From: Gemmatimonadales bacterium
Lineage (GTDB): Bacteria; Gemmatimonadota; Gemmatimonadetes; Gemmatimonadales; Gemmatimonadaceae
DNA: 64,000 bases
Assembly: GCA_038330215.1 (NCBI GenBank)
Contig: JBBQNT010000001.1
Coordinates: 1,356 to 65,355 of the forward strand
Reading direction: 5' to 3'
Shown here: positions 7,606 to 60,082 of the stretch, piece by piece
Position numbering within the stretch: the stretch's first letter is position 1
How the letters are laid out: each line of letters opens with the position of its first letter
The notes under the pieces: generated by a model
The model's database searches: none
What the model saw: only the letters and a program-made list of their open reading frames with translations
What the model was told of the DNA's origin: nothing
Program-made: the position numbers and the translations under genes

Positions 7606-7640
7606 TTGATCCTTGTGCGTATTCCAGCTATGTTACACAA
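7606..7640 (+). promoter_or_regulatory. putative promoter TTGATC(7606-7611)-17 nt-TATGTT(7629-7634) overlapped by operator-like inverted repeat GTGCGTA-N12-TACACAA (7615-7640)
   Basis: Read directly in the 59-bp divergent intergenic region. Belongs to the 26-bp IR family described in the findings. Confidence 0.5.
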
Positions 7641-7658
7641 AAATCGGCAGCACAGCCA

Positions 7659-8096
7659 ATGGCAAGTTCGATCTTACTCCGAAACCAGCTGTTCACCGGC
7701 GAGGTCGACGGCCACACCATCAGCCTCTTCTTGGAAGAGGCTGAGTCTGGTCTTCATCCCGTCGCGAAAGCGATCCGCCAAGGATCCGGGCGCCGCTTGT
7801 TCGAGCGCCTGATGCAGGCCATGGTCGAGCAACCGCATGATGTCATTACCAGCATGCGCCGCAACCTTGATCGCCCGGCTACCCTGTTTGCCTGTCTTCC
7901 GGCCGACGAGATGTTTGAGCTTTTTGCTGCGATCGAAGAAGTGGATCCAGGCCTCCTTCAGGCTGCGGTGGAGCAAGCGCCTGGCGCAATACGTGTGGTA
8001 GCGAACGAGCGTTTCAGCTTCCTCGGGGCGATGCACAAGCTCTGTACGTTGTTGACGTTTTGCCAGCGATCCCCGAAACATCAACCTTCAATGTAA
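7659..8096 (+). CDS. hypothetical protein (145 aa, acidic, helical)
   Basis: Preceded by the promoter-like site. It ends 12 nt before the next + gene, which has a GGAG SD. The competing antisense ORF was rejected (see rejected list). Confidence 0.5.
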   Translation: MASSILLRNQLFTGEVDGHTISLFLEEAESGLHPVAKAIRQGSGRRLFERLMQAMVEQPHDVITSMRRNLDRPATLFACLPADEMFELFAAIEEVDPGLLQAAVEQAPGAIRVVANERFSFLGAMHKLCTLLTFCQRSPKHQPSM

Positions 8097-8108
8097 GCGG
8101 AGTTCCCC

Positions 8109-8555
8109 ATGTTCATCCGATGGCGCTGTGTGCTGCTCACCCTCTTGATCGCCGTCACGCCTGCTTGGGCTCAGGAGTATCCGAACGAAGGCGACCGCTG
8201 CCAAGAAATCACGACGATGAGCAACGACGTCTTCGGACTCGTCATCGATGCCAACAAGGCGCGCATCAAAGCTTTCATCCGACCCTCAGCGAAGCTTTTC
8301 AAAGCGGATTGCCTGCGTACGATCGTTACTCGTCTCGGTGGCTTTCGGCATCTGATGAGTTTTCTCAACGGAAGCGGCTCCTTGTGGACGCGCCTTCCCG
8401 ACATCGGTGCGCTGCTTTGCAATGCTGTCATCGAAAATCTTCCGGACAATTGGAATGGCGACGCTGGTGCGCCGGTTCCACTGATCGACATCCTGTCCGC
8501 TCCAGCAGTTGCGCCATCTCGGCAACGTATGGCGATCGTGCGGGGAGTGGCGTGA
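8109..8555 (+). CDS. exported protein (148 aa), unknown function
   Basis: Signal peptide MFIRWRCVLLTLLIAVTPAWA/QE; gcggag SD about 8 nt upstream. Confidence 0.65.
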   Translation: MFIRWRCVLLTLLIAVTPAWAQEYPNEGDRCQEITTMSNDVFGLVIDANKARIKAFIRPSAKLFKADCLRTIVTRLGGFRHLMSFLNGSGSLWTRLPDIGALLCNAVIENLPDNWNGDAGAPVPLIDILSAPAVAPSRQRMAIVRGVA

Positions 8556-9637
8556 TGCGCCTCACTCGGTTCGGGCGGTGCATGGTTGGCTCCACCGTGC
8601 TCCTGATCGCCACATTGACCAGCGCGCCCCGGCCCGCGAAAGCGACGGTCGGAGAGGATGCGGCGTTGATCATTGCGTTCCTGCAGGGCACGTTCACCAC
8701 GGTCTCTCAGGCGTTCTTTCAGAACTTGATTCAAGAGCAGTTGCTGGGCAAGGGAAACACGGCGGTCGTAGAGCAGATCGCTGCCGACACCGTGGGCGTG
8801 CAGCAGGCGCTGCAGCATCATGTGTCGGCGACAGTCGAAGCAATGACCCGCCAGACCACTGAGCAGGTGAATGATTTCACGCGTCGCGAATTCGGTGCAC
8901 TTGGCCACGTGCAGATCGGTGGACGATTGGTGAACATCGGATCAAACGCGCCATCTGCATGCCGGCGGACGCAGGACGCGAAGGTGCTCGAACGTGGCGG
9001 CGTCAACCTCGCTTCTACCCAACGGGACATCACGGACACGTCGGCCGCCTACAACTCACGCTTTCAGTCCCAGGTCGCTCAAACCGGTGCCATGAGCACC
9101 GACCGCCGTCGCTATGGCGACAAGGTGTTCGCGCTCGACTGGTTGCAGGACGTGTCGATCGAGACTGACCAGGACAGCTACGACCGCGCGAAACGCTCGA
9201 TCGCCTACGCCACCTACACCACACCGCTGCCCATGCCGCCCACCACGCAGACGGCATCCGGCGCCGAGTATTCGTCACGCCTCGCGCAGCACCGTGAAGC
9301 AGTGAAGCTGCCGCAATCCGTCCTGGCTCGTCAGCTCGCCCTGCGTCGGCCGATAACGGGCGACGAACGCGGCCGTAGCTACATCGAGATCATCACTGAT
9401 TGGGGACGCCAAGCTGCAGAGGACGCGATCAAGCCGGCAGCGATGCAGGTCAAGACCCAGGCAGGAATCGAGCGCGAGAACACGCTTCTGCTGAACTCGC
9501 TCGTCGCGATGCAGGCCGAGTCGATCAAAGCCCAACACGACACCAATGCGCTGCTCGCGGTGATCGCGGCACGTGAGCTTGACGGCCGGTCGAAAGAACT
9601 GCGCGACGAATACGCCGGGACGATCTCGGCTGACTAG
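8555..9637 (+). CDS. exported or membrane-anchored protein (~360 aa), unknown function; possible transfer-apparatus component
   Basis: Internal ATG of track ORF 8060..9637 overlaps the upstream stop (TGATG). N-terminus MRLTRFGRCMVGSTVLLIATLTSAPRPAKA is signal-like. Confidence 0.6.
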   Translation: MRLTRFGRCMVGSTVLLIATLTSAPRPAKATVGEDAALIIAFLQGTFTTVSQAFFQNLIQEQLLGKGNTAVVEQIAADTVGVQQALQHHVSATVEAMTRQTTEQVNDFTRREFGALGHVQIGGRLVNIGSNAPSACRRTQDAKVLERGGVNLASTQRDITDTSAAYNSRFQSQVAQTGAMSTDRRRYGDKVFALDWLQDVSIETDQDSYDRAKRSIAYATYTTPLPMPPTTQTASGAEYSSRLAQHREAVKLPQSVLARQLALRRPITGDERGRSYIEIITDWGRQAAEDAIKPAAMQVKTQAGIERENTLLLNSLVAMQAESIKAQHDTNALLAVIAARELDGRSKELRDEYAGTISAD

Positions 9638-9645
9638 CCCGATTG

Positions 9646-9663
9646 CACTGAGAGACTGAGAGA
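9646..9663 (+). promoter_or_regulatory. leader motif copy 1: CACTGAGAGACTGAGAGA
   Basis: Exact 18-mer shared with 16372-16389. The 15-mer core is shared with two further copies. 15 nt upstream of ATG 9679. Confidence 0.6.
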
Positions 9664-9678
9664 CAGGAGCCGAACATC

Positions 9679-10353
9679 ATGAAGGTAGAACCCAAATTCC
9701 GAATGCCGCTTGGACGCAGTCTTGCGATGACGGATCGCGCCGCCAATCGTCCGGTGAATGCGTCCGTGGCCACCGTCGAGCGCGTCGAGCGTGAGGCAGC
9801 GCGGAAATTCGCGGCAACCGTCGGTGACGCGCTGAGCAGTGTGCGTTTCCGTGCGGATACTTTCTCCGCTCATCTGGAAGGATTCGTTCGCACAAGCGGA
9901 GCGAGCGAGTTGATTGAGGCTGCGAACGACAGGAGCAAGCCGCACGTCGCGCAGGCCTGTCAAGGGGTTCTCCACAAAGCAGGAGTGGCGGGGTCGCCGC
10001 ATGCCCACCACGCACAGGCCGTGGCTACTGCATTGCGTGAAGCATTCGCCGAAGCAAAACGCGGTCTTGCTGATGCCCATCAGCGCTGGGGCGAAGAGCA
10101 CATCGACACGCCTGAGGCTCGCGAGCAGGTGCAGGCGATCGTCACCAGGATGCACGCAGCCGGTGTGGCGGCAATCACCTTCCTCGGCCACGTCGGTGAT
10201 CAAAACGGACAGCTCCTTGGTCGTGAGGCACGCACCCTGTACCAGGATCTCACGGATACGGCGCACGACGTGGTCGCCAATTTCGACCAGTTCGAGGCCG
10301 GGATGAAGCAGGCTCCAGCCAAGACCGCCAAGGGCGGCATGCGAATGTCATGA
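9679..10353 (+). CDS. hypothetical protein (224 aa)
   Basis: aggag SD upstream, ATGA overlap with the next gene, helical Ala-rich composition. Confidence 0.6.
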   Translation: MKVEPKFRMPLGRSLAMTDRAANRPVNASVATVERVEREAARKFAATVGDALSSVRFRADTFSAHLEGFVRTSGASELIEAANDRSKPHVAQACQGVLHKAGVAGSPHAHHAQAVATALREAFAEAKRGLADAHQRWGEEHIDTPEAREQVQAIVTRMHAAGVAAITFLGHVGDQNGQLLGREARTLYQDLTDTAHDVVANFDQFEAGMKQAPAKTAKGGMRMS

Positions 10354-11123
10354 CGAGTATGCGCGCACCGCTGGTGGTGATCGAAGCGCCTGGAAAGGCG
10401 CGTCGTCTAGCTCAGCTTCTGCGCGCAGCTGGCTACGCTGCGGATGTGTGGGCAACCCGTGGGCACTTCCGAAACAATCCGTCGTCGCTGTGGCCCCTGA
10501 ACATTGACCAGAACCTGGTGGAGACCGCGAGGAGCTACGACTCGGCGCGTCTGGCTGTCCTTCGTGCCGCCGCGCAGAGTCGTTCCGTAATTCTCGCCAC
10601 AGATCCAGATCAGGAAGGTGACGTCATCGCTCGGGACGTCCATGATGCCGTATGCAACATCGCGTCCAGCGTCCAGCGAGTCCACCTGCATGCACTCGAT
10701 GTAGCCGGCGTGAAGCGGGCATTCGCGAACGTCAGACCGTATGACCCAGTCGCCGCCGTACCTGGCGATGCACGACGTATCATCGATCGTCTGGTTGGCT
10801 CCGCATGTTCGAGTGCAAGGAAGCCAGTAGGGCGCGTGTTTACCGGCGCCCTCGGGGCCATGGATCGAACCGATCCAATCGTGGGACACGTCACGCTGAC
10901 GCTACCTGCCGTTGAAGGTCTTCCGTTCGTTGCCCGCGTACCTGTGACCGCACGTACACGGGAGATCTGGATGGAACGCTTGGCAGAATCACGAAGCTTC
11001 TCCGCTGCCACCGTGGCGTTCCAACACACCGAGCTTGGTCCGGCGTGGGGATACGCCAAGTTACTCAGCGTCGCTTCTGGCGCGGCGCTCATGCCGTCGC
11101 ACATTCGTGCAGGTGCGCCTTGA
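10350..11123 (+). CDS. topoisomerase IA-like protein, TOPRIM half (part 1 of a gene split over two frames)
   Basis: LVVIEAPGKARRL (catalytic Glu) and ILATDPDQEGD (DxD) are TOPRIM motifs of type IA topoisomerases. The ORF stops at 11123. Confidence 0.7.
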   Translation: MTSMRAPLVVIEAPGKARRLAQLLRAAGYAADVWATRGHFRNNPSSLWPLNIDQNLVETARSYDSARLAVLRAAAQSRSVILATDPDQEGDVIARDVHDAVCNIASSVQRVHLHALDVAGVKRAFANVRPYDPVAAVPGDARRIIDRLVGSACSSARKPVGRVFTGALGAMDRTDPIVGHVTLTLPAVEGLPFVARVPVTARTREIWMERLAESRSFSAATVAFQHTELGPAWGYAKLLSVASGAALMPSHIRAGAP

Positions 11124-12160
11124 GCGTCGCCGGCGGCGCCGCACTGCTGCAGCGGCTTTATGAAGAAGGCGCGCTGAGCTATCCGCGCTCTGACCATGAT
11201 GCACTCTCCGAAGAATCCGTTGAGATTCTTGCCCGTGTGGCCGAGCGGCATCGTCTGCCATTCGACGGAGCAAACATTCCTCGATTTCACCCCACCGCAG
11301 AGCGACCGCACGAAGCGGTGCACCCGCTCTTCGATGCTGCTACGAAGATCAATCTGGACATCCCGAGCCGCATGCTCTCGACCGCGGATCGGCTCATGCA
11401 CGACCTGACGCGTGCCTGGCTGAGACGATGCGCCGAGATCGATTTCGAGACCGCAGATACGGCGGGTTTGCCGGAGTGGGCGCAAGAACTGGCGTGGATC
11501 CGCCCTGCGACAACGCAACGTCATGCAGCGTTGATATTTGAGGAAGAGCGTGCGCCTCGTGCGAGGCTGACGCTCTACCAACCGGATCTGATCGCGTTGG
11601 GCGTGCTCGACGTGCACCGACTGGGGCGGCCGTCGACATTGGCCGTGCACGCCCAGCACATCGCTGATCGAGGCGTGCTGGATGTCAACGGCATGACCGT
11701 CGAGGGTCGCAGGCTGCTGGCGGACTCTCCCGAAGTGCTGGCGATACCTACGACATCGAGCACCATCGAATCGATTGTAGACGGAACCATTGGCGCCGAG
11801 TGCCCGGCCATCATGCCGTCGACGTCCGACATTACGCTCGCGCGACTCGCTCAGGTGATCGAGTACGCGGTTCCGGAACTCAAACCGCGTTTCGCGCGAG
11901 CCATCGAAGACCAGGCGTTGTCGGACAGCAGCGAGTTCGCTCCGTCGAACCGCGAGACAGAAGACGATCTCAGACGGCCTGTGTTCCTGTGGCCGTGGCT
12001 GACTCTTGCGGAAGAAGAGCAGTCAGTCGAGCGCATTGACGATCGGAAGCGTCAAGAAGAACTGCGCCGCCGCGAGGAAGAACGAGAGCGCATGGAAGCC
12101 CCCGCAGAAACGTCGCTGCCACAACCGGGAGGTGGTCATGCCGCACCCTTACTACGCTGA
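11045..12160 (+). CDS. topoisomerase IA-like protein, catalytic-tyrosine half (part 2; true start undefined)
   Basis: LLQRLYEEGALSYPRSD matches the QxLYE-G-x-I(T/S)YxRTD active-site Tyr motif. The frame differs from part 1 and overlaps it over 11045-11123. Confidence 0.65.
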   Translation: MGIRQVTQRRFWRGAHAVAHSCRCALSVAGGAALLQRLYEEGALSYPRSDHDALSEESVEILARVAERHRLPFDGANIPRFHPTAERPHEAVHPLFDAATKINLDIPSRMLSTADRLMHDLTRAWLRRCAEIDFETADTAGLPEWAQELAWIRPATTQRHAALIFEEERAPRARLTLYQPDLIALGVLDVHRLGRPSTLAVHAQHIADRGVLDVNGMTVEGRRLLADSPEVLAIPTTSSTIESIVDGTIGAECPAIMPSTSDITLARLAQVIEYAVPELKPRFARAIEDQALSDSSEFAPSNRETEDDLRRPVFLWPWLTLAEEEQSVERIDDRKRQEELRRREEERERMEAPAETSLPQPGGGHAAPLLR

Positions 12161-12566
12161 TCCAGAGCGTTCGGTGCCTGCTCTCGTCATCGGACGTCTG
12201 CGAACGGCCGGCTTCGAGGACGTGCGTCCAGCACCCGAACTGCTCGATGGCGACGACTTGGGAATAGATCTGACGGTAGAGCTGGCGTTCGGTCAGATGG
12301 ACGGACTGTTTCCTGTCGTGATCGCGCAAGCGCATCGTATTTTCGAAGACACGTGGCTCGATCGAGGTGGCGCGAGTTGGCCGTTCGCAATCGAGAACGA
12401 TCCGGACAGCATGACCGGTCGACGCGCTCGCTTCATTGGTGACAGTCAAGGCCTGGTCGTCGCGATGCTGTGCATCGTTGGCGTCTTAGAGCAATGGGTA
12501 GATCGCAGTGCGACGCCACCTCCGGTGCTCGCCATAGGGGACAATCATGAAAGTCGCGAACAGTAA
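12138..12566 (+). CDS. hypothetical protein (142 aa)
   Basis: Internal ATG of track ORF 12006..12566, preceded by ggaggtgg SD. Overlaps both neighbours. Confidence 0.5.
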   Translation: MPHPYYADPERSVPALVIGRLRTAGFEDVRPAPELLDGDDLGIDLTVELAFGQMDGLFPVVIAQAHRIFEDTWLDRGGASWPFAIENDPDSMTGRRARFIGDSQGLVVAMLCIVGVLEQWVDRSATPPPVLAIGDNHESREQ

Positions 12567-14799
12567 ATCCATCCTGCATGTTCTGATGTCAAAGCGGATG
12601 TTGCTTGGAGCAGCCGCGGCAACGATGTCGAGTGTCAGTCTCGCACAAAGCGTCAGTGCCGATTCTGCCTTTCGCGACATCTTTGGCGTCGATCCGTCCT
12701 CGCTTGCCTCGATCATGGCGGGCAACAACGGAACGCTCATCGGAGCAGTTTCGAACGTGATCAACATCGTGGCACTCACTGCAGCCGTGTTCGCGATGAT
12801 CCTGACCTTCTTCGTCGGTTTGGCCCAAAGCGCTCACGACGGCAGTGTTCTTGGTAAGCGGTATTCATCGCTGTGGGTGCCACTCCGATCGGTTATCGGA
12901 TTGGGATTCCTCACGCCCCTTCCAGGCGGATACTCGATGCTGCAAGCGTTCGTGCTCTGGATCGGTACCTTGGGTTCGATGTTTGCTGACCAAGCATGGA
13001 CGGGGTCGCTGTCGTACATGAGTCAAGGCAACGCGCCAGCGACGATTATGTCCACGCCAAACTCCCGAGCGACTGTGACGGCCATGTTCAACGCCTCAGT
13101 TTGCGCAGCACGCGCTCAAGCCGTGGCTCGTGAGGCGGGGGACGGAAGCTTTGGGGTCGAGGTCATCAAGGTTGGTCGCGCCATATCGCGAGCTGGTGCC
13201 CCGGCGTACTATGAATCGCAGGGCGATCTTGCCGGCGTTGGTACGGCCGCGTTCGTCGTGCGCGGTGGCGTTCGATTCGACGGGCAGGGCGCCATGTACG
13301 GCGCCAAAGCAGTCTGCGGGGAGGTGATGGTCGAGCACACGATGCCACCTGGCGGTGCGCTCAGCGGAGCGATATTCGCGACCGCGAATGAGCAGGTCGC
13401 GAACTTGCATGCGATGTCGGACGACACGATGCGGGTAGCCACCGACATGGTGGCCGGTGGTGTGCTGAGTGGTACCGATGTTCGCCGTCAACTGCTGGCG
13501 ATCGAGTCCGCGTACGCGATCGCTGAGTCCGAGCGCATCAGACGTTACGGCACTGCGGCGTCAGGCGCGCTGCAGGAGGCAAGGGAGTTGACGATTCAGC
13601 GAGCGGGCAACGGCGGCTGGATTACCGCGGGGGCTTGGTACAACACGCTCGCAGGGGCATCCAACGCAGTGCAGGAAGGTGCGCAGACAGAGACGATCAC
13701 GCGAGGGGCGCGTCTGGACCAGATGCCTGCATCGTTACGAGACGACATCAAACCATTCGTCGACAGCGCAGAAACCATCACGCGCGCAACCTCGGGGACC
13801 GGCCAGGTGGACACCGCTGCGGCCGAGGCCGGAGTCAGCCCAGCTGGCGCCGGCGACACCTCGGAACCTGGTTGGTGGGACAGCGTGACCAGCTCGTTGA
13901 GCCCCAGTGCGTTGTGGAACTCAGCATTCAACAACGCCACGGGCATCGTGTCGACGTGGTGTCGTGGGATCTTCGAGTCGCTCGTGCATGTGATGATCGG
14001 TGACCCCGGCGACGACCCCATCATCAAGCTCCAGCAGTTCGGGCACGCAGGACTCAACACGCTGGAGGTTGTCCTATCTGGCATGTTCCTGATTGCGGTG
14101 ACGTTGGGTGCCTTGGTGGTTGGGCTGGGCGCTTCCATAGGCATTTTCATGATGATGGTGCCGACTATCATCGGCCTCGGATTGCCGCTAGTAATCCTCG
14201 CCTACTACCTCCCTATGATTCCATTCATTTACTGGACATTCGGCACGCTCGCATGGGTGCTGCTCTTGCTCGAAGGCGTGGCGATCGCGCCGATGTGGGC
14301 GGCGGCGCATGTGTGGCCGGAGGGCGAAGGCCTCGCCGGCGAGAGAGCCAAGCAGGGATGGGTCTTGATGCTGTCGTTGCTGCTGCGGCCGGTGCTGATG
14401 GTGTTTGGTTTCGTTGCCGCCATCCTGGTCGTCCGCTTCATGAGCTTGGTGCTTGGAACGACGTTCCGTCTTTTCATGGACGCAAGCATGGGTAGTCAAA
14501 CCTTCGGCATCATCTCGACCGCGGCCTATCTCATTGCCCTGGTCGCGTTGGTCATCGCAGTGTCGAAGCAGGCCTTCGCGCTGATCTATCTGGTTCCCGA
14601 TCGCGCACTGCGCTTCATCGGCGCCGGCGACTCATTGGGCGAGGCGGGCTCGATCAGCAATGTGCGGGAAGCTGCAGGGCCGATCGTAGCAATGGGCGCC
14701 GCCGGCGCCGGTGCGGTGATGTCGGCCGCCAAGAGTGCGAGTGCAGTGGGGCAGGGTGCCAAGTCCGCTGCAGGCGCCGTCGTGTCGAAGGGGAAATAA
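12547..14799 (+). CDS. DotA/TraY-family polytopic membrane protein (type IVB secretion/conjugation)
   Basis: 750 aa, similar in size to R64 TraY (from memory). Signal-like N-terminus, early TM helices around SVLGKRYSSLWVPLRSVIGLGFLTPLPGG, a large soluble middle and a cluster of C-terminal TM helices. Family call is by recollection of the motif and topology. Confidence 0.6.
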   Translation: MKVANSKSILHVLMSKRMLLGAAAATMSSVSLAQSVSADSAFRDIFGVDPSSLASIMAGNNGTLIGAVSNVINIVALTAAVFAMILTFFVGLAQSAHDGSVLGKRYSSLWVPLRSVIGLGFLTPLPGGYSMLQAFVLWIGTLGSMFADQAWTGSLSYMSQGNAPATIMSTPNSRATVTAMFNASVCAARAQAVAREAGDGSFGVEVIKVGRAISRAGAPAYYESQGDLAGVGTAAFVVRGGVRFDGQGAMYGAKAVCGEVMVEHTMPPGGALSGAIFATANEQVANLHAMSDDTMRVATDMVAGGVLSGTDVRRQLLAIESAYAIAESERIRRYGTAASGALQEARELTIQRAGNGGWITAGAWYNTLAGASNAVQEGAQTETITRGARLDQMPASLRDDIKPFVDSAETITRATSGTGQVDTAAAEAGVSPAGAGDTSEPGWWDSVTSSLSPSALWNSAFNNATGIVSTWCRGIFESLVHVMIGDPGDDPIIKLQQFGHAGLNTLEVVLSGMFLIAVTLGALVVGLGASIGIFMMMVPTIIGLGLPLVILAYYLPMIPFIYWTFGTLAWVLLLLEGVAIAPMWAAAHVWPEGEGLAGERAKQGWVLMLSLLLRPVLMVFGFVAAILVVRFMSLVLGTTFRLFMDASMGSQTFGIISTAAYLIALVALVIAVSKQAFALIYLVPDRALRFIGAGDSLGEAGSISNVREAAGPIVAMGAAGAGAVMSAAKSASAVGQGAKSAAGAVVSKGK

Positions 14800-14802
14800 C
14801 CA

Positions 14803-15761: not shown

Positions 15762-15779
15762 TGCATCTTATAAGATGCA
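15762..15779. promoter_or_regulatory. perfect 18-bp palindrome TGCATCTTATAAGATGCA upstream of the XRE/HipB-like gene
   Basis: Read directly. Flanked by GGATC/GGATA-type half sites, in a divergent intergenic region. Confidence 0.5.
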
Positions 15780-15810: not shown

Positions 15811-16362
15811 ATGTTGACTACCGCCGGTGAGAAAAGTGACGCCGTTGATACTGGGGTGGAAACCTCAGCCCCACAGGGAGCCTGGCCGCCTGCCGGTGCT
15901 GTCGACGAAGAGATCGTGCTCGAAACTCCCGCAGTACCCGACGAGCCCGATTCGGCAGCTCCTGCGCAATCGGACAACGTGCGAACGCTCGCTGATGGCA
16001 GAAGCATCACCCGCCGTGTCAACGCGCTTCGCGAGACCACGGCACGCAAGGTCGGAATGGACAGCATGGCGCGCCACCTGCGCGCCTTTCGGGAAGAAGT
16101 TCTGCGTGTCCGTCAGGAGGACATGGCATTCCTGCTGGGCGTCAGTCGCATGACGTATCAGCGTATGGAGAACGGGCACACTGGTGTTGCGATTGACGCG
16201 TGGTTGCGCGCGATGCAACTCATGGATCACCTGCCTACCCTGACGAAGATGGATCTTGCCCGTGATCGCGCTGCGCTGGCCAAATTTCAGCGACAAGCCG
16301 ATGAACATGAGCGCGAGCTGGCTGCTTTGGAAGAGGCGAACCCGGAGCGCTTTTACGGCTGA
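15811..16362 (+). CDS. XRE-family HTH protein, HipB-like antitoxin candidate (start uncertain; alternative ATG at 16057)
   Basis: FREEVLRVRQEDMAFLLGVSRMTYQRMENG is an XRE HTH, immediately upstream of the HipA-like gene. The N-terminal ~80 aa are acidic/Pro-rich low complexity. Confidence 0.7.
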   Translation: MLTTAGEKSDAVDTGVETSAPQGAWPPAGAVDEEIVLETPAVPDEPDSAAPAQSDNVRTLADGRSITRRVNALRETTARKVGMDSMARHLRAFREEVLRVRQEDMAFLLGVSRMTYQRMENGHTGVAIDAWLRAMQLMDHLPTLTKMDLARDRAALAKFQRQADEHERELAALEEANPERFYG

Positions 16363-16371: not shown

Positions 16372-16389
16372 CACTGAGAGACTGAGAGA
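16372..16389 (+). promoter_or_regulatory. leader motif copy 2: CACTGAGAGACTGAGAGA
   Basis: Identical 18-mer to 9646-9663. 8 nt upstream of ATG 16398, in the hipB-hipA-like intercistronic gap. Confidence 0.6.
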
Positions 16390-16397
16390 GGCTGACT

Positions 16398-17807: not shown

Positions 17808-17830
17808 TCGCAATTCCATGCCAGCACCGA

Positions 17831-17857
17831 GCCCGCGGAGACGCGGGCTTTTTGTTT
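17831..17857 (+). terminator. rho-independent terminator after the hipA-like gene
   Basis: GCCCGCG-gaga-CGCGGGC followed by TTTTTGTTT. Confidence 0.7.
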
Positions 17858-17888
17858 GCCTGAAATACTGGGGCCGTTTCGACTGGAC

Positions 17889-17914
17889 GTGTGTAATATA
17901 TGTACAATACACAC
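17889..17914 (+). promoter_or_regulatory. operator-like IR GTGTGTA-N12-TACACAC overlapping -10-like TACAAT (17903-17908), upstream of topB
   Basis: Read directly. 26 nt upstream of ATG 17941, which has an aggag SD. Confidence 0.55.
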
Positions 17915-23998: not shown

Positions 23999-24024
23999 CT
24001 GTGAAGTACATTATCTATTCACAC
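23999..24024 (+). promoter_or_regulatory. weak/degenerate member of the 26-bp IR family (CTGTGAA-N12-TTCACAC)
   Basis: Same 12-nt spacing; 5/7 and 6/7 arm matches; 20 nt upstream of ATG 24045. Confidence 0.3.
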
Positions 24025-24712: not shown

Positions 24713-24738
24713 GTGCGTATTCCAGTAGCAATACGCAC
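24713..24738 (+). promoter_or_regulatory. operator-like perfect IR GTGCGTA-N12-TACGCAC
   Basis: Read directly. Shares the 13-mer GTGCGTATTCCAG with the site at 7615. 40 nt upstream of ATG 24779. Confidence 0.55.
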
Positions 24739-27712: not shown

Positions 27713-28174
27713 GTGCCAGCCCTCGCGCTGCCGATACCGAATCCTAACGCCAGCGACGGAGTAGGGCAGGCACACCTGATCGAATCGCCGCCGCCCACGT
27801 AGGAAATCTCTGAGGAACCCTTCGGAACCGTCGGAGCTGCGCCTAAGATTCCGCCCAACAAGACATCCGCTTCATGCCAGCCGTCCGCGTCAAACAATGC
27901 TCCATGGCACGCCGATGCGGCTCTTACAGCCCTAGCCAGTTAGACATCATTCTTTCCATTATTGCCACTATAGCTTCCACTGTGGTCACGCTCTTCACTA
28001 ACCTTCTGATGTTAATAAAATAAGACCATGCAGTCATTGTGCATCAGATGAGACAAATGCAGGAATCCTGCATCAGCTAGAGCAATACTGGAATTCACAG
28101 CAGCCGTTATGATCCGGTGGGATTTCAGTGGTTTAGCACATTGGCGCATAACGCGCACAACCCTGCCTCGTCAT

Positions 28175-28207
28175 GCACATATTGTGCATCGGATGCACAA
28201 TATGTGC
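28175..28207. repeat. near-perfect 33-bp palindrome GCACATATTGTGCATC-g-GATGCACAATATGTGC in a non-coding region
   Basis: Read directly. The half-site ATTGTGCATC recurs at 28036-28045. A second 7-1-7 palindrome, TGCAGGA-a-TCCTGCA, is at 28058-28072. Confidence 0.9.
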
Positions 28208-28567
28208 GTTTAATGAGCAAATTGTGTGTATAGTGGGGCTACGACAGTGGTGTTTTGACCTGTCGCACCCACCTCGCAGGTGCTCTGCGTTATGACCAAG
28301 AAGCCGACACTCCACGTCGTCCGCTGAGTTGCCCCATACCCAGTAATGCTGGAAAGATCAGCAGCGGAATATGGCCACGCGAAACCGGAACGGCGAGCCA
28401 GCTGCTCCGAAATCCGCATCCGTCCGTTCCCGCGAAGAGAACTCGTCTGTTCTAAGTCCGGAACCTCAACCTGACACTTTCGCTTCGGACGCCGCAAGCC
28501 GTAGTTTCCAGCAGACAAATTCTTCGACCGGCAAACACCTCTGATTAGACGTGCCAACAAACCGCCG

Positions 28568-46384: not shown

Positions 46385-46389
46385 TGGTT

Positions 46390-46404
46390 TCTCTCAGTCT
46401 CTCA
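46390..46404 (-). promoter_or_regulatory. leader motif copy 3 (TGAGAGACTGAGAGA on the minus strand)
   Basis: 5 nt upstream of start 46384. Confidence 0.6.
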
Positions 46405-46413
46405 AGGTGTAGT

Positions 46414-46439
46414 GTGTGTATTGTGCTAGTATTACACAT
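46414..46439. promoter_or_regulatory. operator-like IR GTGTGTA-N12-TACACAT in the divergent promoter region
   Basis: Read directly. The minus-strand reading gives a -10-like CACAAT adjacent to ACACAC. Confidence 0.55.
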
Positions 46440-46496
46440 ATCGTGTATAACCCGCACGCGGCACCTTCCGGGTGCCCAAAAACGACCGGAGCAACC

Positions 46497-49132: not shown

Positions 49133-50025
49133 ACGCCGACGCCGACACTTTGAAGTCATCGCTCGATCTGGTGTCGCAGTTGGATCGAGTGACTAACCTC
49201 TTTGTTCCGAATCCCGGTCAAAATTCGATCCTGCTCGAACTTTGCAAGCTGGTCGATGCGCCCAGTAGCAGCCGTCCCGTCAACATTGTGCTGATCGCTG
49301 AGCCGAACTTCGGCAAATCGGAAACGCTCAAGTACTTCGAGCGAAAGGTCAACCCCGAGTTCAGCTACACCAAGGAGACGACCGAAATTCCAGTCGTTCG
49401 CGTCAGCATGGTCGATGTACAAGATGCTGTAGGTTTGCTCCGCACTACACTTTCTTCAATCGGCATTCGCTACTCGGTGCGAGACCCACTCGACGAATTA
49501 TGGAGGAGATTGAAACTCCATGTCGGGCCGCTGATGCTGCGAGTCTTTGTGTTCGATGACGCTCACGCCGCCGCCGAATTGCGTGAAGCGCGACAGAAGG
49601 AACTGCTCAAGACGTTCCGCCGCTTTGGAGGCATCACCCAACGGCCCATCGCACTTGCGGGCGCAGAGACGCTTCGCTCGTTCATCGATAGTGACCGGGA
49701 ATACCGAACGCGCTTCATTCCGCTGTCCATTCCTGCGATTGCGTCCAAGTCGGACCTGCAGCGGTTCCTCAAAGGATTCGATGAACGACTGGGACTTGAT
49801 CCCACGAGCAACTTATCTCATGCAGACACGGTGGCACTCGTGCATGAACTAGTGGGCTTGGAGCTTGGCGCCGTGTGCCTTTTGATCAAGCATGCTGCCC
49901 AGACCGCCATTCGCAACGGCTCGGTATGCATCACGCCGCAGTTGCTGAAAGATGCGGTTCAGACCGTCCCCGACCTGCAGCAAGTACACCAACATAGGCG
50001 CGGCTCCTTGATGATCCGGGACTAA
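49129..50025 (+). CDS. TniB-like AAA ATPase (no transposase partner nearby)
   Basis: Walker A EPNFGKSETLKYF; IPVVRVSM; Walker B RVFVFDDAHA; PIALAGAETL...RTRFIPLSIPAIAS...FLKGFDERLGL follows the TniB pattern (from memory). Confidence 0.65.
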   Translation: MNADADTLKSSLDLVSQLDRVTNLFVPNPGQNSILLELCKLVDAPSSSRPVNIVLIAEPNFGKSETLKYFERKVNPEFSYTKETTEIPVVRVSMVDVQDAVGLLRTTLSSIGIRYSVRDPLDELWRRLKLHVGPLMLRVFVFDDAHAAAELREARQKELLKTFRRFGGITQRPIALAGAETLRSFIDSDREYRTRFIPLSIPAIASKSDLQRFLKGFDERLGLDPTSNLSHADTVALVHELVGLELGAVCLLIKHAAQTAIRNGSVCITPQLLKDAVQTVPDLQQVHQHRRGSLMIRD

Positions 50026-53818: not shown

Positions 53819-53833
53819 GGGCGTATCCGTTGT

Positions 53834-53859
53834 GTGTGTATTAGATACTAAGTATACAC
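53834..53859. promoter_or_regulatory. operator-like IR GTGTGTA-N12-TATACAC upstream of the ankyrin operon
   Basis: Read directly in the 49-bp gap between the helicase stop (53868) and the ankyrin start (53818). Confidence 0.5.
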
Positions 53860-53867
53860 AAAACCTT

Positions 53868-59800: not shown

Positions 59801-60014
59801 CAGCACCGAACTTACGATGCCAACGCCCCGACTTTGAGTGCGGCCGCATCCCGAATGCGCTCAGCGCGTCGGCGTTCCGTTCCGTTTGTCCCCCGGCGAC
59901 CAGCACTCGCTCGCGGGAACCTCGGCTGGACACCAGGAAGAACTTCAAACCGTAGGCGGCAAGATCCACCCACGGGACCGGCGCGCTGGCCGGTGCGGTC
60001 GATTCGTTGGTCAT
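53868..60014 (-). CDS. polyvalent protein: N-terminal conserved domain, N6-adenine DNA methyltransferase, SNF2/DEAD-like helicase and long C-terminal region (2048 aa)
   Basis: MTase motif I VLEPGAGTGMF, motif IV DLVIGNVPFG. Helicase motif I LLAHPVGFGKTA, motif II LMVDEAHRFK, motif VI GAVTQRNGRIIRNGN. Confidence 0.85.
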   Translation of the reverse strand: MTNESTAPASAPVPWVDLAAYGLKFFLVSSRGSRERVLVAGGQTERNADALSAFGMRPHSKSGRWHRKFGADEAFRFQAVRDAFPLMQIVQVPRETFVVWTNERVAKLESDAIPTPATSAAPAEQLKRRAGVAGAQEQHSPAERDAARLLHALGLAERIAVIDRDQNLDFIARIDNPPYMQLVIERQPHPTVDANGRHTGEHQRVMFTHYRRQNGDTFIDAEAVFRLNVDGTLTLIETATQNPLMGGEVRRLDRTFGNLLLRNMVTQGFGSGALQRDEEPESVAASDADPAAAAGPVEQRTDKAPPVDTTTTSEPAAAAIEPATLANDDDFASALLDVPQSGRENYRLDEPERVLRSAWNDRMAVEGNLKALRILQGLRRSGDEPSEEDLDALIGYVGWGGLPGVFSEEHALFRSFNEQLRALASDDEYAQMRASTMNAHYTHHQVIDAMWSAALNAGFVGGRVLEPGAGTGMFIARVPDQVKEATRFVAVEKDPATAGVLRMLFPRAKVFAAGFEETAIPDQSIDLVIGNVPFGSFQVFDPDYRKLNAYIHDYFIVKSLDKLRPGGVLMCLTGTGTLDRQNPKVREAMYERGDLVAAFRLPEDAFKSNANTDVTTDLLMIRKRLPGEAPADFDWSDCIVREGVDESSMTMNGIFATSRGHVLGHLVSSKRMYGAVRNSVTRHHPDGGLPRSLSDWLGIIPQHVPAGIHRPLSASEISAAGGDAEPDVRPFFDPRSEGAFAILGSDDVGAVLNGKPTRITGLNGRDEQRIRDYIPLRDAVADLIQAQLSGCDDGELAILQDRLEKAYAAFVEAHGRVAEGRRNKNRRLLQDDPIFDAVHALEVLDDENRFIGKAEIFTTRTIGPRGVVRCESVQDALVACIDQTGGVDAEWIAKHSGKAWDQCVAELSEQVFRDPASGQWDIAARYLSGNVREKLRIAERAAEANSELGANVAALRERLPQWLTKDEISAALGMRWIEPAIIRDFLYHVYDTSPLMAHFDVTFSSVTGGWEVKVPKYQRSETYDTPRMRTYELIEAALNGKSAKVTKPSDEDDKKRVVDEVATAIAIEKQRELKELFARWVWDAPERVKSLETSYNELFNAHRSADYRQIPISVSGMTTTRQLRTHQATGLARCLLDDNVLLAHPVGFGKTATMSATAVKLRQVLGGKSLVVTPKNVIIQFAGEAKRWFPTARILTIRSEDLTPSGRGRFWRRVQVTSPDLILATPEAYKRLRLPKDAEVRFLMDEIAAYGEQVAAVQQEGGNARRVKQMEAQLAGKCAQLTKLMNLDEKDDMRITLADLGVTTLMVDEAHRFKALQVHSSEQILGIPSSASQRAFDMLSKVRFLQENGGKVIFATGSMITNTVAEVFNMQRYLQPGLLEQANVMHFDAWRAQFADTVQSLEPDPAGKGYRIVNRLAEIRNVPELVRMLAQFVDSVPDTNAFFDRPTPNFHTVSVEPTELQQRLRESLAARVEEIRQRSGRKPEKGQDNILCVLGDARRGALDVRTLYPELPEDVGGSKLREVADCVARIHHKTSDRRGAQAIFLDLATPRAGKADISFNAYEALTAKLVDRGIPRDEIAYIHDAKSDVDKLAMYRRVREGTIRVLLGSTEKMGEGANIQDRLAGLHHLNAPFHPGAVTQRNGRIIRNGNQFPEVEIWTYVTKGMLEDWNWRLVTLKANFIAQVMEGLASGNDGAGLVRKIAEDSGTMSFEAIEAEASDNPLVRRKCVVDTEVRRLDLLRMAWGQQRSSRQSRLDLCGSTIDRVERELNVLLNMQAVIDAAMPSRASRHQAAAEAAAARKESEAPKTKALAGPAVEAEEEIAGNGPPFVMTVGSREYASRRDAGNSLLIAATAAAKETYKQVHVLGDFEGLSVVLRTSFNASPYMMLTPKGQATLVPLQTIDISLSPVGMVRRIENGATAIADAIRRGRDTLTRNREEISEVKAAMTERWPHEDALTVLRREQSEINVELAKANESATGLGMQGFVEALAQYGVDAGRKATTLDDFDVQAALADLGEMESLPEADTDDDEAELVEQPQRAASAGRMRH

Positions 60015-60023
60015 CCGTCACGT

Positions 60024-60038
60024 TCTCTCAGTCTCTCA
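60024..60038 (-). promoter_or_regulatory. leader motif copy 4 (TGAGAGACTGAGAGA on the minus strand)
   Basis: 9 nt upstream of start 60014. Confidence 0.6.
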
Positions 60039-60056
60039 AATCCGCTAAGTGCGGAT

Positions 60057-60082
60057 GTGTGTAGTCTACGCAGTATACACAC
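60057..60082. promoter_or_regulatory. operator-like perfect IR GTGTGTA-N12-TACACAC in the divergent promoter region
   Basis: Read directly, between start 60014 (-) and ATG 60140 (+). Confidence 0.55.

What the first reader, a model, noticed from the sequence alone, without database searches (positions are those of the whole stretch)
7615..60082. Element-wide 26-bp inverted-repeat operator family (GTGYGTA-N12-TACRCAC) overlapping -10 elements of at least six promoters
Six intergenic sites share one architecture with an invariant 12-bp spacer. They are: 7615-7640 GTGCGTA-ttccagctatgt-TACACAA; 17889-17914 GTGTGTA-atatatgtacaa-TACACAC; 24713-24738 GTGCGTA-ttccagtagcaa-TACGCAC; 46414-46439 GTGTGTA-ttgtgctagtat-TACACAT; 53834-53859 GTGTGTA-ttagatactaag-TATACAC; 60057-60082 GTGTGTA-gtctacgcagta-TACACAC. 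A weaker seventh is 23999-24024 CTGTGAA-gtacattatcta-TTCACAC. Each lies 15-45 nt upstream of a start codon. Read toward the gene, the last 5 spacer nt plus the first T of the proximal arm form a -10-like hexamer (TATGTT, TACAAT, AGCAAT, CACAAT, TCTAAT, TAGACT). At 7606-7611 a TTGATC -35 sits 17 nt upstream. One dimeric DNA-binding protein could therefore occlude the promoters of several units: the transfer-accessory operon (7659 onward), the topB operon, the exported-protein genes, the C5-MTase operon with the divergent RuvB/TniB operon, the ankyrin operon, and the polyvalent helicase gene with the divergent Dcm operon. That would wire transfer, DNA modification and cargo into a single regulon. 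I cannot assign the motif to a known regulator, and the cognate protein is not identifiable from sequence.
Basis: seen in the sequence. Interest (0 to 1): 0.72.

Follow-up and report, generated by a model that had tools for sequence, protein, structure and literature searches.

The report
Shared palindromic operator across element promoters
Seven promoter regions of an uncharacterised Dot/Icm-type conjugative element carry the same 26-28 bp palindromic protein-binding site, most likely the operator of one element-encoded repressor that co-controls transfer, DNA-modification and cargo genes; the site family is real and conserved, but it is a familiar kind of plasmid regulon.

Summary
GTGYGTA-N12-TACRCAC (2 mismatches or fewer) hits exactly the six reported sites, against 0.67 expected. 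A position weight matrix (PWM) gives them 29-34 bits; no shuffle exceeds 19.6. All lie in the ~6% of the window that is intergenic, 15-57 nt from start codons. The seventh site (23999) is a symmetric variant (GTGTGAA arms) and is probably real. The motif extends to T-GTGYGTA-wT-N8-Aw-TACRCAC-A.

The element is a novel MPF_I/Dot-Icm-type conjugative element; its best plasmid relative shares 29% DotA identity. In five metagenomic relatives the orthologous promoter between the coupling-protein and T4BSS operons keeps the inverted repeat. The arms are conserved (67%; inner 5 nt 78%), while the spacer (37%) and flanks (27-38%) are not. A -35 TTGMYC sits 4-5 nt upstream. Another relative has the site over a prepilin start codon.

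The best reading is an operator family for one symmetric, element-encoded repressor placed on or just downstream of core promoters. That would make a global regulon like KorA/KorB, the R388 network, Reg576 or ArtA.

The claim that the sites overlap the -10 at six promoters is only partly supported. The regulator was not identified. The HipB-like HTH is unlikely because it has its own palindrome. Small RHH-like proteins in the 60057-controlled operon remain weak candidates.

Novelty: new member of a known kind.

The parts
7615..7640 (.). Operator O1, GTGCGTA-ttccagctatgt-TACACAA. It lies between the divergent 85-aa/coupling-protein operon (minus strand, start 7599) and the IcmW-like to DotA/TraY T4BSS operon (plus strand, start 7659).
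   Evidence: 31.3 bits. The orthologous site is conserved in L001, L003, L005, L010 and L007, and weakly in L022.
7606..7634 (+). Putative sigma-70 promoter of the T4BSS operon: -35 TTGATC (7606-7611), 17-nt spacer, -10 TATGTT (7629-7634). The operator fills the spacer and the -10.
   Evidence: Custom scan. Relatives keep TTGCTC, TTGAAC or TTGACC 4-5 nt upstream of the left arm, and a TAnnnT hexamer at the 3' end of the spacer. The strict scan does not call this promoter.
17889..17914 (.). Operator O2, GTGTGTA-atatatgtacaa-TACACAC. It lies 26 nt upstream of topB (17941) and downstream of the HipA terminator (17829-17850).
   Evidence: 34.3 bits. The strict scan calls the promoter TCGACT-18-TACAAT at 17879-17908, whose -10 overlaps the right end of the site.
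23999..24024 (.). Weak variant operator O3, CTGTGAA-gtacattatcta-TTCACAC. It lies 20 nt upstream of a 168-aa lipoprotein-like gene (24045).
   Evidence: 16.6 bits, the seventh-best independent hit. It matches TGYGWA-N12-TWCRCA exactly. The T-to-A change is symmetric in both arms, and the same TTCACAC arm is used in relative L006.
24713..24738 (.). Operator O4, GTGCGTA-ttccagtagcaa-TACGCAC. It lies 40 nt upstream of a 432-aa exported-protein gene (24779).
   Evidence: 32.5 bits; a perfect palindrome.
46414..46439 (.). Operator O5, GTGTGTA-ttgtgctagtat-TACACAT. It lies between the C5-MTase operon (minus strand, start 46384) and the RuvB-like AAA / TniB-like operon (plus strand, start 46497).
   Evidence: 33.3 bits; Pfam results. 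A possible minus-strand promoter, TATACA-18-CACAAT, was found.
53834..53859 (.). Operator O6, GTGTGTA-ttagatactaag-TATACAC. It sits in the 49-nt gap between the stop of the 2048-aa gene (53868) and the ankyrin-repeat gene (minus strand, start 53818), 15 nt from that start codon.
   Evidence: 29.3 bits; ankyrin Pfam hits.
60057..60082 (.). Operator O7, GTGTGTA-gtctacgcagta-TACACAC. It lies between the 2048-aa helicase/MTase polyvalent gene (minus strand, start 60014) and the plus-strand operon that begins at 60140: 65-aa gene, C5-MTase, 67-aa gene, 75-aa gene, then a large protein.
   Evidence: 33.9 bits. The strict scan predicts a minus-strand promoter at 60125-60098, which would put the site at roughly +9 to +34.
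62472..62699 (+). Candidate cognate regulator (weak). A 75-aa basic-tailed protein with an RHH-like beta-alpha-alpha pattern (RRHQVMLDD...GNLSGGIREAALIV), translationally coupled inside the O7-controlled operon.
   Evidence: The gene call is confirmed by P0016 and L033. It belongs to a small family with invariant L-D...G-N-x-S-x-G-x-R-x-A-A. AlphaFold pLDDT is 60. Nothing links it to the motif.
60140..60337 (+). Candidate cognate regulator (weak). A 65-aa protein, the first gene downstream of O7, with a basic N-terminal tail and two predicted helices.
   Evidence: AlphaFold pLDDT is 62, with helices at residues 31-43 and 45-63. No family hit; hhalign against the RHH set is negative.
3984..4247 (+). 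Candidate cognate regulator (weak). An 87-aa Cro/Xre-like HTH protein in the pilus/TrbN region. It is conserved in relatives L001, L003 and L005, which keep the O1 site.
   Evidence: Homologues found. Weak hits to a PHROG 'transcriptional repressor' (E=0.049) and to a PDB HTH cro/C1-type domain (E~1).

Best explanation
The seven sites are operators for one symmetric (dimeric or dimer-of-dimers) sequence-specific DNA-binding protein. That protein is most likely encoded by the conjugative element itself and acts as a repressor.

Each operator sits on the core promoter or just downstream of it, either between -35 and -10 or at about +10 to +35. The promoters belong to the first genes of these units:
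- the coupling-protein and T4BSS (IcmW-like to DotA) operons;
- the topB / HerA-like ATPase / exonuclease operon;
- two exported-protein genes;
- the C5-MTase operon and the divergent RuvB-like/TniB-like operon;
- the ankyrin operon;
- the 2048-aa helicase-methylase gene and the divergent C5-MTase operon.

Occupancy would block RNA polymerase binding or promoter escape. At the three divergent regions, one bound protein would silence both directions. Transfer, DNA modification/anti-defence and cargo would then form a single regulon. After transfer into a repressor-free recipient this regulon should be transiently derepressed (zygotic induction) until the repressor accumulates.

Shown: the existence, specificity, symmetry, placement and evolutionary conservation of the sites.
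Inferred: that a protein binds them, the sign of regulation, the origin of the regulator, and zygotic induction.
For: Statistics: 6 hits against 0.67 expected. PWM scores of 29-34 bits exceed the maximum of any shuffle, 19.6, and the result survives leave-one-out testing.

Only the N12 spacing works, which is what a rigid protein dimer would require.

The same arm sequence recurs at unrelated promoters, not merely complementary arms. Position-specific extras (T at -1, wT at +8/+9) are also symmetric.

All 7 sites lie within the ~6% of the window that is intergenic, and each precedes the first gene of an operon.

At 4 of 7 sites the gap to the start codon is 26 nt or less. A promoter cannot fit downstream of the site, so a bound protein must sit on or after the -10. 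This is the geometry of repression.

Conservation:
- The orthologous coupling-protein/T4BSS intergenic region in relatives with 39-50% DotA identity keeps the repeat: L001/L003/L005 GTGCGTT-N12-TACACAA; L010 GTGTGTA-N12-CACGCAC; L007 AGGCGTA-N12-TACGCCA, with a symmetric change.
- Pairwise identity is 67% in the arms (78% for the inner 5 nt), 37% in the spacer and 27-38% in the flanks.
- In about 338 kb of fetched loci, the exact core occurs only at that orthologous L007 position.
- Relative L006 uses the site at a different promoter, over the prepilin start codon.

Promoter context: a conserved -35 TTGMYC lies 4-5 nt upstream of the left arm in 5 relatives. The strict scan calls the topB promoter, with its -10 inside the site.

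The sites are not RNA elements. Predicted hairpins are weak (-3 to -12.7 kcal/mol) and mostly no better than shuffles, and Rfam gives no hit.

Precedent: global operator networks and zygotic induction are established for RP4 (KorA 7 sites, KorB 12; PMC7314908), R388 (PMC3937220), p576 Reg576 (PMC6294495) and pSK41 ArtA (PMC2777438).
Against: No cognate protein was identified. No candidate has a significant DNA-binding family hit, and 45 kb of the source contig lies outside the window.

Sigma-70 predictions at 24713, 53834 and 60057 are poor or differently placed, so the mode of repression is not uniform or proven.

The relatives available are short fragments. Only one site (O1) could be tested for orthologous conservation, and those fragments carry one site each.

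Conservation of O1 could partly reflect conservation of the promoter it overlaps. However, the conserved arms lie mostly in the -35/-10 spacer, which promoters do not normally conserve.

There are no expression or binding data.
Confidence: 0.6

Rival explanations
1. The sites are bound by a host chromosomal transcription factor. The element would have recruited a host regulon signal, such as a stress or growth-phase regulator, rather than encoding its own regulator.
For: No element-encoded regulator could be assigned. The motif persists across relatives whose DotA is only 39-50% identical, which would fit a conserved host factor.
Against: The motif does not match the tested consensus sequences for LexA, CRP/Vfr, NtcA, KorA/B and others. 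Operator arms drift in the relatives (GTGCGTT, GGCGTA, CACGCAC), as expected for co-evolution with a private regulator. Characterised plasmid networks are mostly self-encoded (PMC7314908). The host is unknown, so its genome could not be scanned.
Confidence: 0.13
2. The sites bind an activator or dual-function regulator. Examples would be a MerR-like factor that remodels the -35/-10 spacer, or a class II activator. The regulon would then be switched on rather than off by the protein.
For: The -35 and -10 hexamers at most sites are poor, as is typical of activator-dependent promoters. At O1 and O2 the site fills the -35/-10 spacer, as MerR operators do.
Against: The predicted spacers are 17-18 nt, not the 19-20 nt typical of MerR promoters. 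The 26-28-bp site extends across the -10 and to within 15-26 nt of start codons, which is incompatible with class I/II activator geometry. At 60057 the best-predicted promoter puts the site downstream of the start. In L006 the site overlaps the start codon.
Confidence: 0.1
3. The sites are recombination or other DNA-transaction sites, for example binding sites of a serine or tyrosine recombinase or of a partition/ParB-like protein. Regulation would be at most a side effect.
For: The 28-bp total length, with outer major-groove-type arms and an inner A/T pair, resembles resolvase subsites (recalled from memory, not tested). A tyrosine integrase is encoded at 33159-34361.
Against: A 12-bp spacer is too long for tyrosine-recombinase cores. 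No serine recombinase or ParB was found among the ORFs scanned. Seven dispersed sites in both gene orientations would cause deletions and inversions. Every site lies 15-57 nt from a start codon, which recombination sites have no reason to do. There are no clustered arrays of the kind seen at centromeres.
Confidence: 0.03
4. The repeats act as RNA or ssDNA hairpins, such as leader structures, terminators or single-strand promoters used during transfer.
For: They are inverted repeats close to 5' ends of genes. One of them (24713) folds significantly better than shuffles (z = -5).
Against: Stems are 7-10 bp with about 12-nt loops. Free energies are -3 to -9 kcal/mol for 6 of 7, and z-scores are above -2. 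There is no T-tract and no Rfam hit. The arm sequence itself is conserved across sites and relatives rather than covarying. Known ssDNA promoters are hairpins of about 300 nt (established knowledge).
Confidence: 0.03

Closest known systems
KorA/KorB(/KorC/TrbA) global operator network of IncP-1 plasmids RK2/RP4
   Same: Short palindromic operators are repeated at many promoters (KorA 7 sites, KorB 12). They tie replication, maintenance and conjugative-transfer operons into one self-encoded negative circuit. They include divergent promoter pairs controlled from one site, and they give zygotic induction after transfer (PMC7314908).
   Different: The operator sequences are unrelated: O_A GTTTAGCTAAAC and O_B TTTAGCSGCTAAA (consensus from memory) are absent here. 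Those are contiguous 12-13-bp palindromes, not 7-N12-7. The transfer system differs (MPF_T versus the Dot/Icm-like MPF_I here). KorB is a ParB homologue, and no ParB was seen in this window.
Reg576 (RHH) repressor of establishment genes of Bacillus plasmid p576
   Same: A 7-bp motif recurs at four promoters of anti-restriction/establishment genes. The repressor is autoregulated. Each operator is bound by two dimers. Operator configurations differ between promoters. Derepression after transfer is transient (PMC6294495).
   Different: The heptamer there is TTATCCC, arranged as direct repeats 2 bp apart. Here the arrangement is an inverted 7-N12-7, and no TTATCCC pairs are present. The host there is Gram-positive. 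The regulon there excludes the conjugation operon, whereas here the T4BSS and coupling-protein promoters are included.
R388 (IncW) regulatory network (ArdK, KorA, StbA, TrwA, ResP, KfrA)
   Same: Plasmid-encoded repressors bind repeated operators at the promoters of transfer, anti-restriction/SOS-inhibition and maintenance operons. Negative feedback produces an overshoot on entry into a new host (PMC3937220; ArdK-DNA structures in PMC9723621).
   Different: R388 uses several regulators, each with a few targets. Here a single motif covers at least seven promoter regions. The operator sequences and transfer type are unrelated.
ArtA (RHH with basic N-terminal tail), master regulator of pSK41
   Same: A single small plasmid protein represses conjugation and segregation promoters through a repeated operator. 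Its extended basic N-terminal arm resembles the tails of the 65-aa and 75-aa candidates here (PMC2777438).
   Different: The ArtA operator is ACATGACATG, 10 bp and bound by one dimer. It is absent here apart from two chance one-mismatch hits. The RHH nature of the candidates here is unproven.
Long-spaced inverted-repeat operators bound by bridged RHH dimers (NikR GTATGA-N16-TCATAC; FitAB 8-bp half-sites about 12-14 bp apart)
   Same: Two short half-sites sit nearly two helical turns apart (here 19 bp centre to centre). This implies two DNA-reading heads held apart by an oligomerisation module. This comparison is from memory and was not tested.
   Different: The half-site sequences differ. No NikR-like or PIN-domain partner was found. 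The resemblance is in architecture only.

Membership tests
Plasmid/ICE global-repressor operator network (functional class, e.g. KorA/KorB, ArdK, Reg576, ArtA) | The same operator sequence recurs at the promoters of several separate operons of one mobile element. | tested here: met
   Seven sites lie upstream of operon first genes. All are intergenic and far above chance.
Plasmid/ICE global-repressor operator network (functional class, e.g. KorA/KorB, ArdK, Reg576, ArtA) | The operators overlap or immediately follow the core promoter, so that binding represses. | tested here: inconclusive
   The geometry fits: 4 of 7 sites are 26 nt or less from the ATG. The -35/-10 arrangement is conserved at O1 in relatives, and the topB promoter is called by the strict scan. 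No transcription starts are mapped, and predictions at the other sites are weak.
Plasmid/ICE global-repressor operator network (functional class, e.g. KorA/KorB, ArdK, Reg576, ArtA) | The regulator is element-encoded, usually autoregulated, and binds the operator. | not testable with these tools
   There are only weak candidates: the 65-aa and 75-aa proteins in the O7 operon and the 87-aa HTH. Binding needs EMSA or DAP-seq.
Plasmid/ICE global-repressor operator network (functional class, e.g. KorA/KorB, ArdK, Reg576, ArtA) | The operator is conserved in related elements. | tested here: met
   O1 is conserved in L001, L003, L005, L010 and L007, and weakly in L022. The arms are more conserved than the spacer or flanks. 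The motif is reused at another promoter in L006.
IncP-1 KorA / KorB operators | Sequence match to O_A (GTTTAGCTAAAC) or O_B (TTTAGCSGCTAAA); both consensus sequences are from memory. | tested here: not met
   There is no O_B at 2 mismatches or fewer. The single O_A-like hit has 2 mismatches and lies inside a gene at 49359.
Reg576-type RHH operators | Dual TTATCCC heptamers 2 bp apart (PMC6294495). | tested here: not met
   One hit with 3 mismatches, located elsewhere.
LexA SOS box (gamma/beta-proteobacterial type) | CTGT-N8-ACAG palindrome (from memory). | tested here: not met
   No exact CTGT-N8-ACAG anywhere in the window. The spacing and arm sequence differ.
CRP/Vfr/Clp sites | TGTGA-N6-TCACA (from memory). 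| tested here: not met
   No hit at 1 mismatch or fewer. The 23999 variant reads TGTGA-N14-TCACA, which is the wrong spacing.
Intrinsic terminator / structured RNA leader | A stable GC-rich hairpin, followed by a T-tract in terminators, with covariation rather than sequence identity. | tested here: not met
   Hairpins are weak, with 12-nt loops. There are no Rfam hits. The arms are sequence-conserved.
Ribbon-helix-helix (RHH) regulator (for the 75-aa candidate 62472-62699) | N-terminal beta-strand plus two helices, with detectable similarity to RHH families or structures. | tested here: inconclusive
   The family alignment shows the pattern hxhxLD...GN(L/M)SxGxRxAA. hhalign places it in the RHH register, but only at P=0.01 with 4% probability. 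There are no Pfam, NCBIfam, PHROG or PDB hits. The AlphaFold model has helices at residues 14-19, 38-48 and 55-68 (the last two in RHH-like positions), with pLDDT 60.

The most novel reading that the evidence does not exclude
In a previously undescribed family of Dot/Icm-type (MPF_I) conjugative elements, a single new small DNA-binding protein reads the 7-N12-7 operator. It may belong to the uncharacterised 'GNLSxGxRxAA' family represented by the 75-aa gene at 62472-62699. Through one switch it couples the T4BSS/coupling-protein genes to a large anti-defence/establishment island: two C5-MTases, a 2048-aa helicase-methylase, an ankyrin operon, and topB/HerA/exonuclease. The whole programme would fire by zygotic induction on entry into a new host.
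Probability: 0.3. Interest if true: 0.55.

Novelty: new member of a known kind. Interest (0 to 1): 0.4.

Why it matters
Regulation of Dot/Icm-type (MPF_I) conjugative elements outside IncI/IncL/M plasmids is essentially unknown, and this element family has no characterised relative. Its DotA is at most 29% identical, and its coupling protein at most 38% identical, to anything in PLSDB.

A single, easily recognisable operator that marks the promoters of transfer, DNA-methylation, polyvalent-protein and cargo operons does three things:
- it gives an immediate operon map;
- it offers a handle for finding the regulator, by DNA-affinity capture with a 28-bp probe;
- it yields a testable prediction that these genes are co-derepressed right after transfer.

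It also shows that the 'one repressor, many promoters' logic of IncP-1, IncW, pSK41 and p576 extends to another transfer-system class. It does not reveal a new principle.

Tried and rejected
1. Close relatives in reference collections. Megablast of 13 kb against PLSDB found nothing. tblastn with DotA, the coupling protein, the RuvB-like protein and the 2048-aa protein gave only distant hits of 38% identity or less. Two genome-contig scans returned nothing and then one 30%-identity fragment. IMG/VR returned nothing.

2. Extending beyond the window by exact-protein look-up. This failed for DotA and for two window-edge genes. The look-up with the 75-aa protein returned only a 1.4-kb contig.

3. 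Conservation of a second site through RuvB-like homologues. L032 is a different element without the motif, and L045 lacks the upstream region.

4. Regulator identification.
- Pfam, NCBIfam and PHROGs at permissive E-values, plus PDB sequence and profile searches, on all small candidates gave nothing significant.
- AlphaFold without alignments gave pLDDT of about 60, so no fold search was run.
- The HipB-like HTH was rejected as the regulator because its own promoter carries a different, conserved palindrome.
- The 85-aa divergent gene was set aside because L007 keeps the site without that gene.

5. Literature search for the arm sequences returned nothing relevant.

6. An exact-motif scan of IMG/VR gave 11 isolated low-GC phage palindromes with longer arms, judged unrelated.

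7. Extra nearby half-sites, at 46443 and 60114, are not above the background of about 4 per kb.

8. The reading of the fixed-position hexamers as independent evidence for a -10 was rejected. The terminal T, and often the preceding A, are part of the symmetric motif.

Full report
**1. Observation**

A search for GTGYGTA-N12-TACRCAC with up to 2 mismatches returns exactly the six reported sites: 7615, 17889, 24713, 46414, 53834 and 60057. Three are perfect and three have one mismatch. Dinucleotide-preserving shuffles give 0.67 +/- 0.79 hits, and none of 100 shuffles reaches 6.

I scanned every spacer length from 0 to 30. Only N12 gives six separate loci at 0-1 mismatch. Most hits at other spacings are 2-mismatch, frame-shifted readings of the same GT-rich arms.

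Aligning the sites and their reverse complements extends the motif to T-GTGYGTA-wT-N8-Aw-TACRCAC-A. In the 12 half-sites, T at -1 occurs 10 times and T at +9 occurs 10 times.

A 28-bp position weight matrix (PWM) separates the six sites (29.3-34.3 bits) from everything else. The best unrelated hit scores 9.6 bits. Across shuffles the maximum score averages 11.1 and never exceeds 19.6. In leave-one-out tests each omitted site still scores 18.7-28.5 bits and ranks directly behind the five training sites.

The stripped core GYGTA-N12-TACRC occurs 5 times, against 0.07 expected.

Site 23999 (CTGTGAA-N12-TTCACAC) carries the same T-to-A change in both arms. The same TTCACAC arm appears in a relative. 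Under the relaxed pattern TGYGWA-N12-TWCRCA it is an exact match. I count it as a probable weaker member.

**2. Context**

The window has 60% GC. It encodes an MPF_I / Dot-Icm-like conjugation system and a set of accessory genes:
- type IV pilins (386-2798);
- a TrbN-like transglycosylase (4244-4744);
- a TrbC/IcmO-like coupling protein (4800-7322, minus strand);
- an operon running from a weakly IcmW-like gene (7659) through a split Toprim/topoisomerase-like pair to DotA/TraY (12547-14799) and an LPD7 protein;
- a HipB-like/HipA-like pair;
- TopB, a HerA-like ATPase and an RNase T-type exonuclease;
- a tyrosine integrase and a SprT-like protein;
- two C5 methyltransferases;
- RuvB-like and TniB-like ATPases;
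- an ankyrin-repeat protein;
- a 2048-aa helicase/methylase polyvalent protein.

All seven sites lie wholly in intergenic DNA, which makes up only about 6% of the window. Each precedes the first gene of a co-directional gene string. Three of them (7615, 46414, 60057) sit between divergent genes. Gaps from the site edge to the nearest start codons are 15/18, 26, 20, 40, 29/57, 15 and 42/57 nt.

**3. Relatives and conservation**

The element has no close relative in the reference collections:
- PLSDB megablast found nothing.
- The best plasmid DotA is 29% identical, in Xanthomonas plasmids.
- The best plasmid coupling protein is 38% identical.
- GTDB-species genomes gave only one 30%-identity fragment.

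The large protein collection holds a handful of DotA homologues at 39-60% identity. The JGI scan added others. Their contigs (L001-L008, L010, L022) are syntenic across the coupling-protein / T4BSS region.

In every relative that includes the divergent intergenic region orthologous to the one at 7615, an N12-spaced inverted repeat sits at the same place:

| Locus | Left arm | Right arm | Source |
|---|---|---|---|
| window | GTGCGTA | TACACAA | |
| L001, L003, L005 | GTGCGTT | TACACAA | |
| L010 | GTGTGTA | CACGCAC | |
| L007 (symmetric second-position change) | AGGCGTA | TACGCCA | |
| L022 (remnant) | TGGCGTA | TCCGCTA | |

I anchored the alignment on the repeat and compared five non-redundant sequences pairwise. 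Identity is 67% in the arms (78% for the inner five bases), 37% in the spacer and 27-38% in the 14-nt flanks. In about 338 kb of fetched loci, the exact core occurs once, at that L007 position.

A -35-like TTGATC, TTGCTC, TTGAAC or TTGACC is kept 4-5 nt upstream of the left arm. A TAnnnT hexamer is kept at the 3' end of the spacer.

Relative L006 carries GTGTGTA-N12-TTCACAC at a different promoter, covering the start codon of the prepilin gene. A weaker copy lies 75 bp upstream, and a small gene that looks RHH-like by eye sits next to it.

**4. What the sites are not**

They are not RNA structures. Predicted hairpins are weak, with 7-10 bp stems, about 12-nt loops and free energies of -3 to -12.7 kcal/mol. 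Six of seven are no better than shuffles. No T-tracts follow them, and Rfam finds nothing in the window. The arm sequence is the same at unrelated promoters, whereas hairpin arms would merely be complementary.

They match no operator consensus I could test: KorA O_A, KorB O_B, the LexA box CTGT-N8-ACAG, CRP TGTGA-N6-TCACA, NtcA, the Reg576 heptamer pair, or the ArtA site. Several of these consensus sequences are from memory.

A 12-bp spacer and dispersed promoter-proximal placement argue against recombinase core sites. No ParB or serine recombinase was seen among the ORFs scanned.

**5. Mechanism**

Three features are what a symmetric oligomeric DNA-binding protein leaves behind:
- perfect dyad symmetry;
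- one fixed spacing, 19 bp centre to centre, or nearly two helical turns;
- conservation of arm sequence but not spacer.

At four of seven sites only 15-26 nt separate the site from the start codon. No promoter can fit downstream, so the -10 and the transcription start must lie inside or upstream of the site. A bound protein would then block RNA polymerase binding or promoter escape.

At 7615 the relaxed scan finds TTGATC-17-TATGTT on the plus strand and TTGGCT-18-TAACAT on the minus strand, both embedded in the site. At topB the strict scan calls TCGACT-18-TACAAT with the -10 inside the site, just downstream of the HipA terminator. At 60057 the strict scan instead predicts a minus-strand promoter (60125-60098), which would place the site at about +9 to +34. 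At 24713 and 53834 the -35 elements are poor.

The repressor-operator reading is therefore well supported by geometry. The specific claim that each site overlaps a -10 hexamer is supported for two or three promoters only. The 'fixed' hexamers owe their last T, and often the preceding A, to the palindrome itself.

By analogy with RP4, R388 and p576, a self-encoded repressor would give transient derepression of all units after transfer. This step is inference.

**6. The regulator**

The regulator was not identified.

The HipB-like Xre protein (15811-16362) is the most widely conserved DNA-binding protein of the backbone. However, its own promoter carries a different palindrome, TGCATCTTATAAGATGCA at 15762-15779. 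Relatives keep GCATC-N6-GATGC-type palindromes at the same position, so it most likely runs a local autoregulatory loop.

The 85-aa gene divergent from O1 is missing in L007, which keeps the site.

Three small proteins lie within the O7-controlled operon:
- The 65-aa protein (60140-60337) has two predicted helices at pLDDT 62.
- A 67-aa protein (62272-62475) lies immediately upstream of the 75-aa gene, and the two genes overlap by 4 nt.
- The 75-aa protein (62472-62699) is confirmed as a called gene.

The 75-aa protein belongs to a small family with invariant L-D...G-N-x-S-x-G-x-R-x-A-A, found as single domains and once as a tandem pair. It has a basic tail and an RHH-like beta-alpha-alpha register.

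An 87-aa Cro-like HTH (3984-4247) is conserved in the relatives that keep O1 and has a marginal PHROG 'transcriptional repressor' hit.

None of these proteins is linked to the motif by any test. In addition, 45 kb of the source contig lies outside the window.

**7. Comparison with known systems and verdict**

In kind, this is a plasmid/ICE global operator network. The closest known examples are:
- KorA/KorB of IncP-1, with 7 and 12 operators (PMC7314908);
- the R388 network (PMC3937220);
- Reg576 of p576, with heptamer operators at four establishment-gene promoters, each bound by two RHH dimers (PMC6294495);
- ArtA of pSK41 (PMC2777438).

It differs from them in three ways: the operator sequence and 7-N12-7 architecture; the transfer-system class (Dot/Icm-like); and the fact that a single motif spans the T4BSS/coupling-protein promoters as well as methylase, polyvalent-protein, ankyrin and topB operons.

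I rate it a new member of a known kind. It is real, conserved and useful for dissecting an uncharacterised element family, but it is not conceptually surprising. Interest is 0.4. Confidence in the repressor-operator explanation is about 0.6.

Noticed in passing
window 9648-9664(+), 16374-16390(+), 46389-46405(-), 60023-60039(-): A 15-17-nt leader motif, (T/C)TGAGAGACTGAGAGA(A/C/G), occurs four times, each 5-15 nt upstream of a start codon: the 224-aa T4BSS gene, HipA, the C5-MTase and the 2048-aa gene. The expected number is 0.13. Two copies lie just downstream of operators O5 and O7. It looks like a shared ribosome-binding or translation-initiation cassette.
   Followed up: partly
window 27950-28260: A lower-GC non-coding region carries three copies of CATGCAnnnATTGTGCATCrGATG (28027, 28056, 28172) and a perfect 16-nt inverted repeat separated by 1 nt (28175-28190 / 28192-28207). 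It is followed by isolated GTGYGTA-like half-sites. It may be an oriT, an oriV or another operator cluster.
   Followed up: partly
window 15762-15779; L001 ~13490-13560; L005 ~12195-12260: The HipB-like/HipA-like pair is part of the conserved backbone in this element family (L001, L004, L005, L010, L012, L014, L022). Its promoter carries its own conserved palindrome of the GCATC-N6-GATGC type; in the window this is TGCATCTTATAAGATGCA.
   Followed up: partly
window 10350-12160 and orthologues in L001, L004, L005, L007, L010, L022: The T4BSS operon contains two adjacent genes that look like a split type IA topoisomerase: a 257-aa Toprim part and a ~350-aa part with faint Topoisom_bac similarity. 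Both are conserved in all relatives, in addition to the full-length TopB at 17941-20205.
   Followed up: no
window 62472-62699; P0020, P0021, P0022: The 75-aa protein defines a small uncharacterised family with invariant L-D...G-N-(L/M)-S-x-G-x-R-x-A-A. It occurs as 65-75-aa single-domain proteins and once as a tandem duplication in a 202-aa protein. No Pfam, NCBIfam, PHROG or PDB match was found.
   Followed up: partly
L006 6882-6907 and 6957-6982: In a relative, the operator overlaps the ATG of the prepilin gene. A second, weaker copy lies 75 bp upstream, at the 3' end of an 87-aa gene that looks RHH-like by eye. This suggests possible looping or roadblock control of the pilus operon.
   Followed up: partly
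L032 ~9930-9975 and ~19620-19650: An unrelated 68%-GC element that encodes a RuvB-like homologue (50% identity) lacks the GTGYGTA motif. It repeats TGCGCAAATTGCGCA-type palindromes in two intergenic regions, possibly as its own operator family.
   Followed up: no
L039 958, 1342, 2548 (IMG/VR phage contig): Three GTGTGTAGT-N6-8-ACTACACAC-like palindromes occur within 1.6 kb of a 42%-GC phage contig. The arms are longer and the spacer shorter than in the window motif, so they are probably an unrelated phage operator or terminator family.
   Followed up: no
window 62662-64000 (+): A long ORF overlaps the 3' end of the 75-aa gene and runs off the window. It contains an HExxH-like motif (AHEFGHALDQH) and looks like another large polyvalent-protein gene. 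It appears to belong to the same O7-controlled operon.
   Followed up: no
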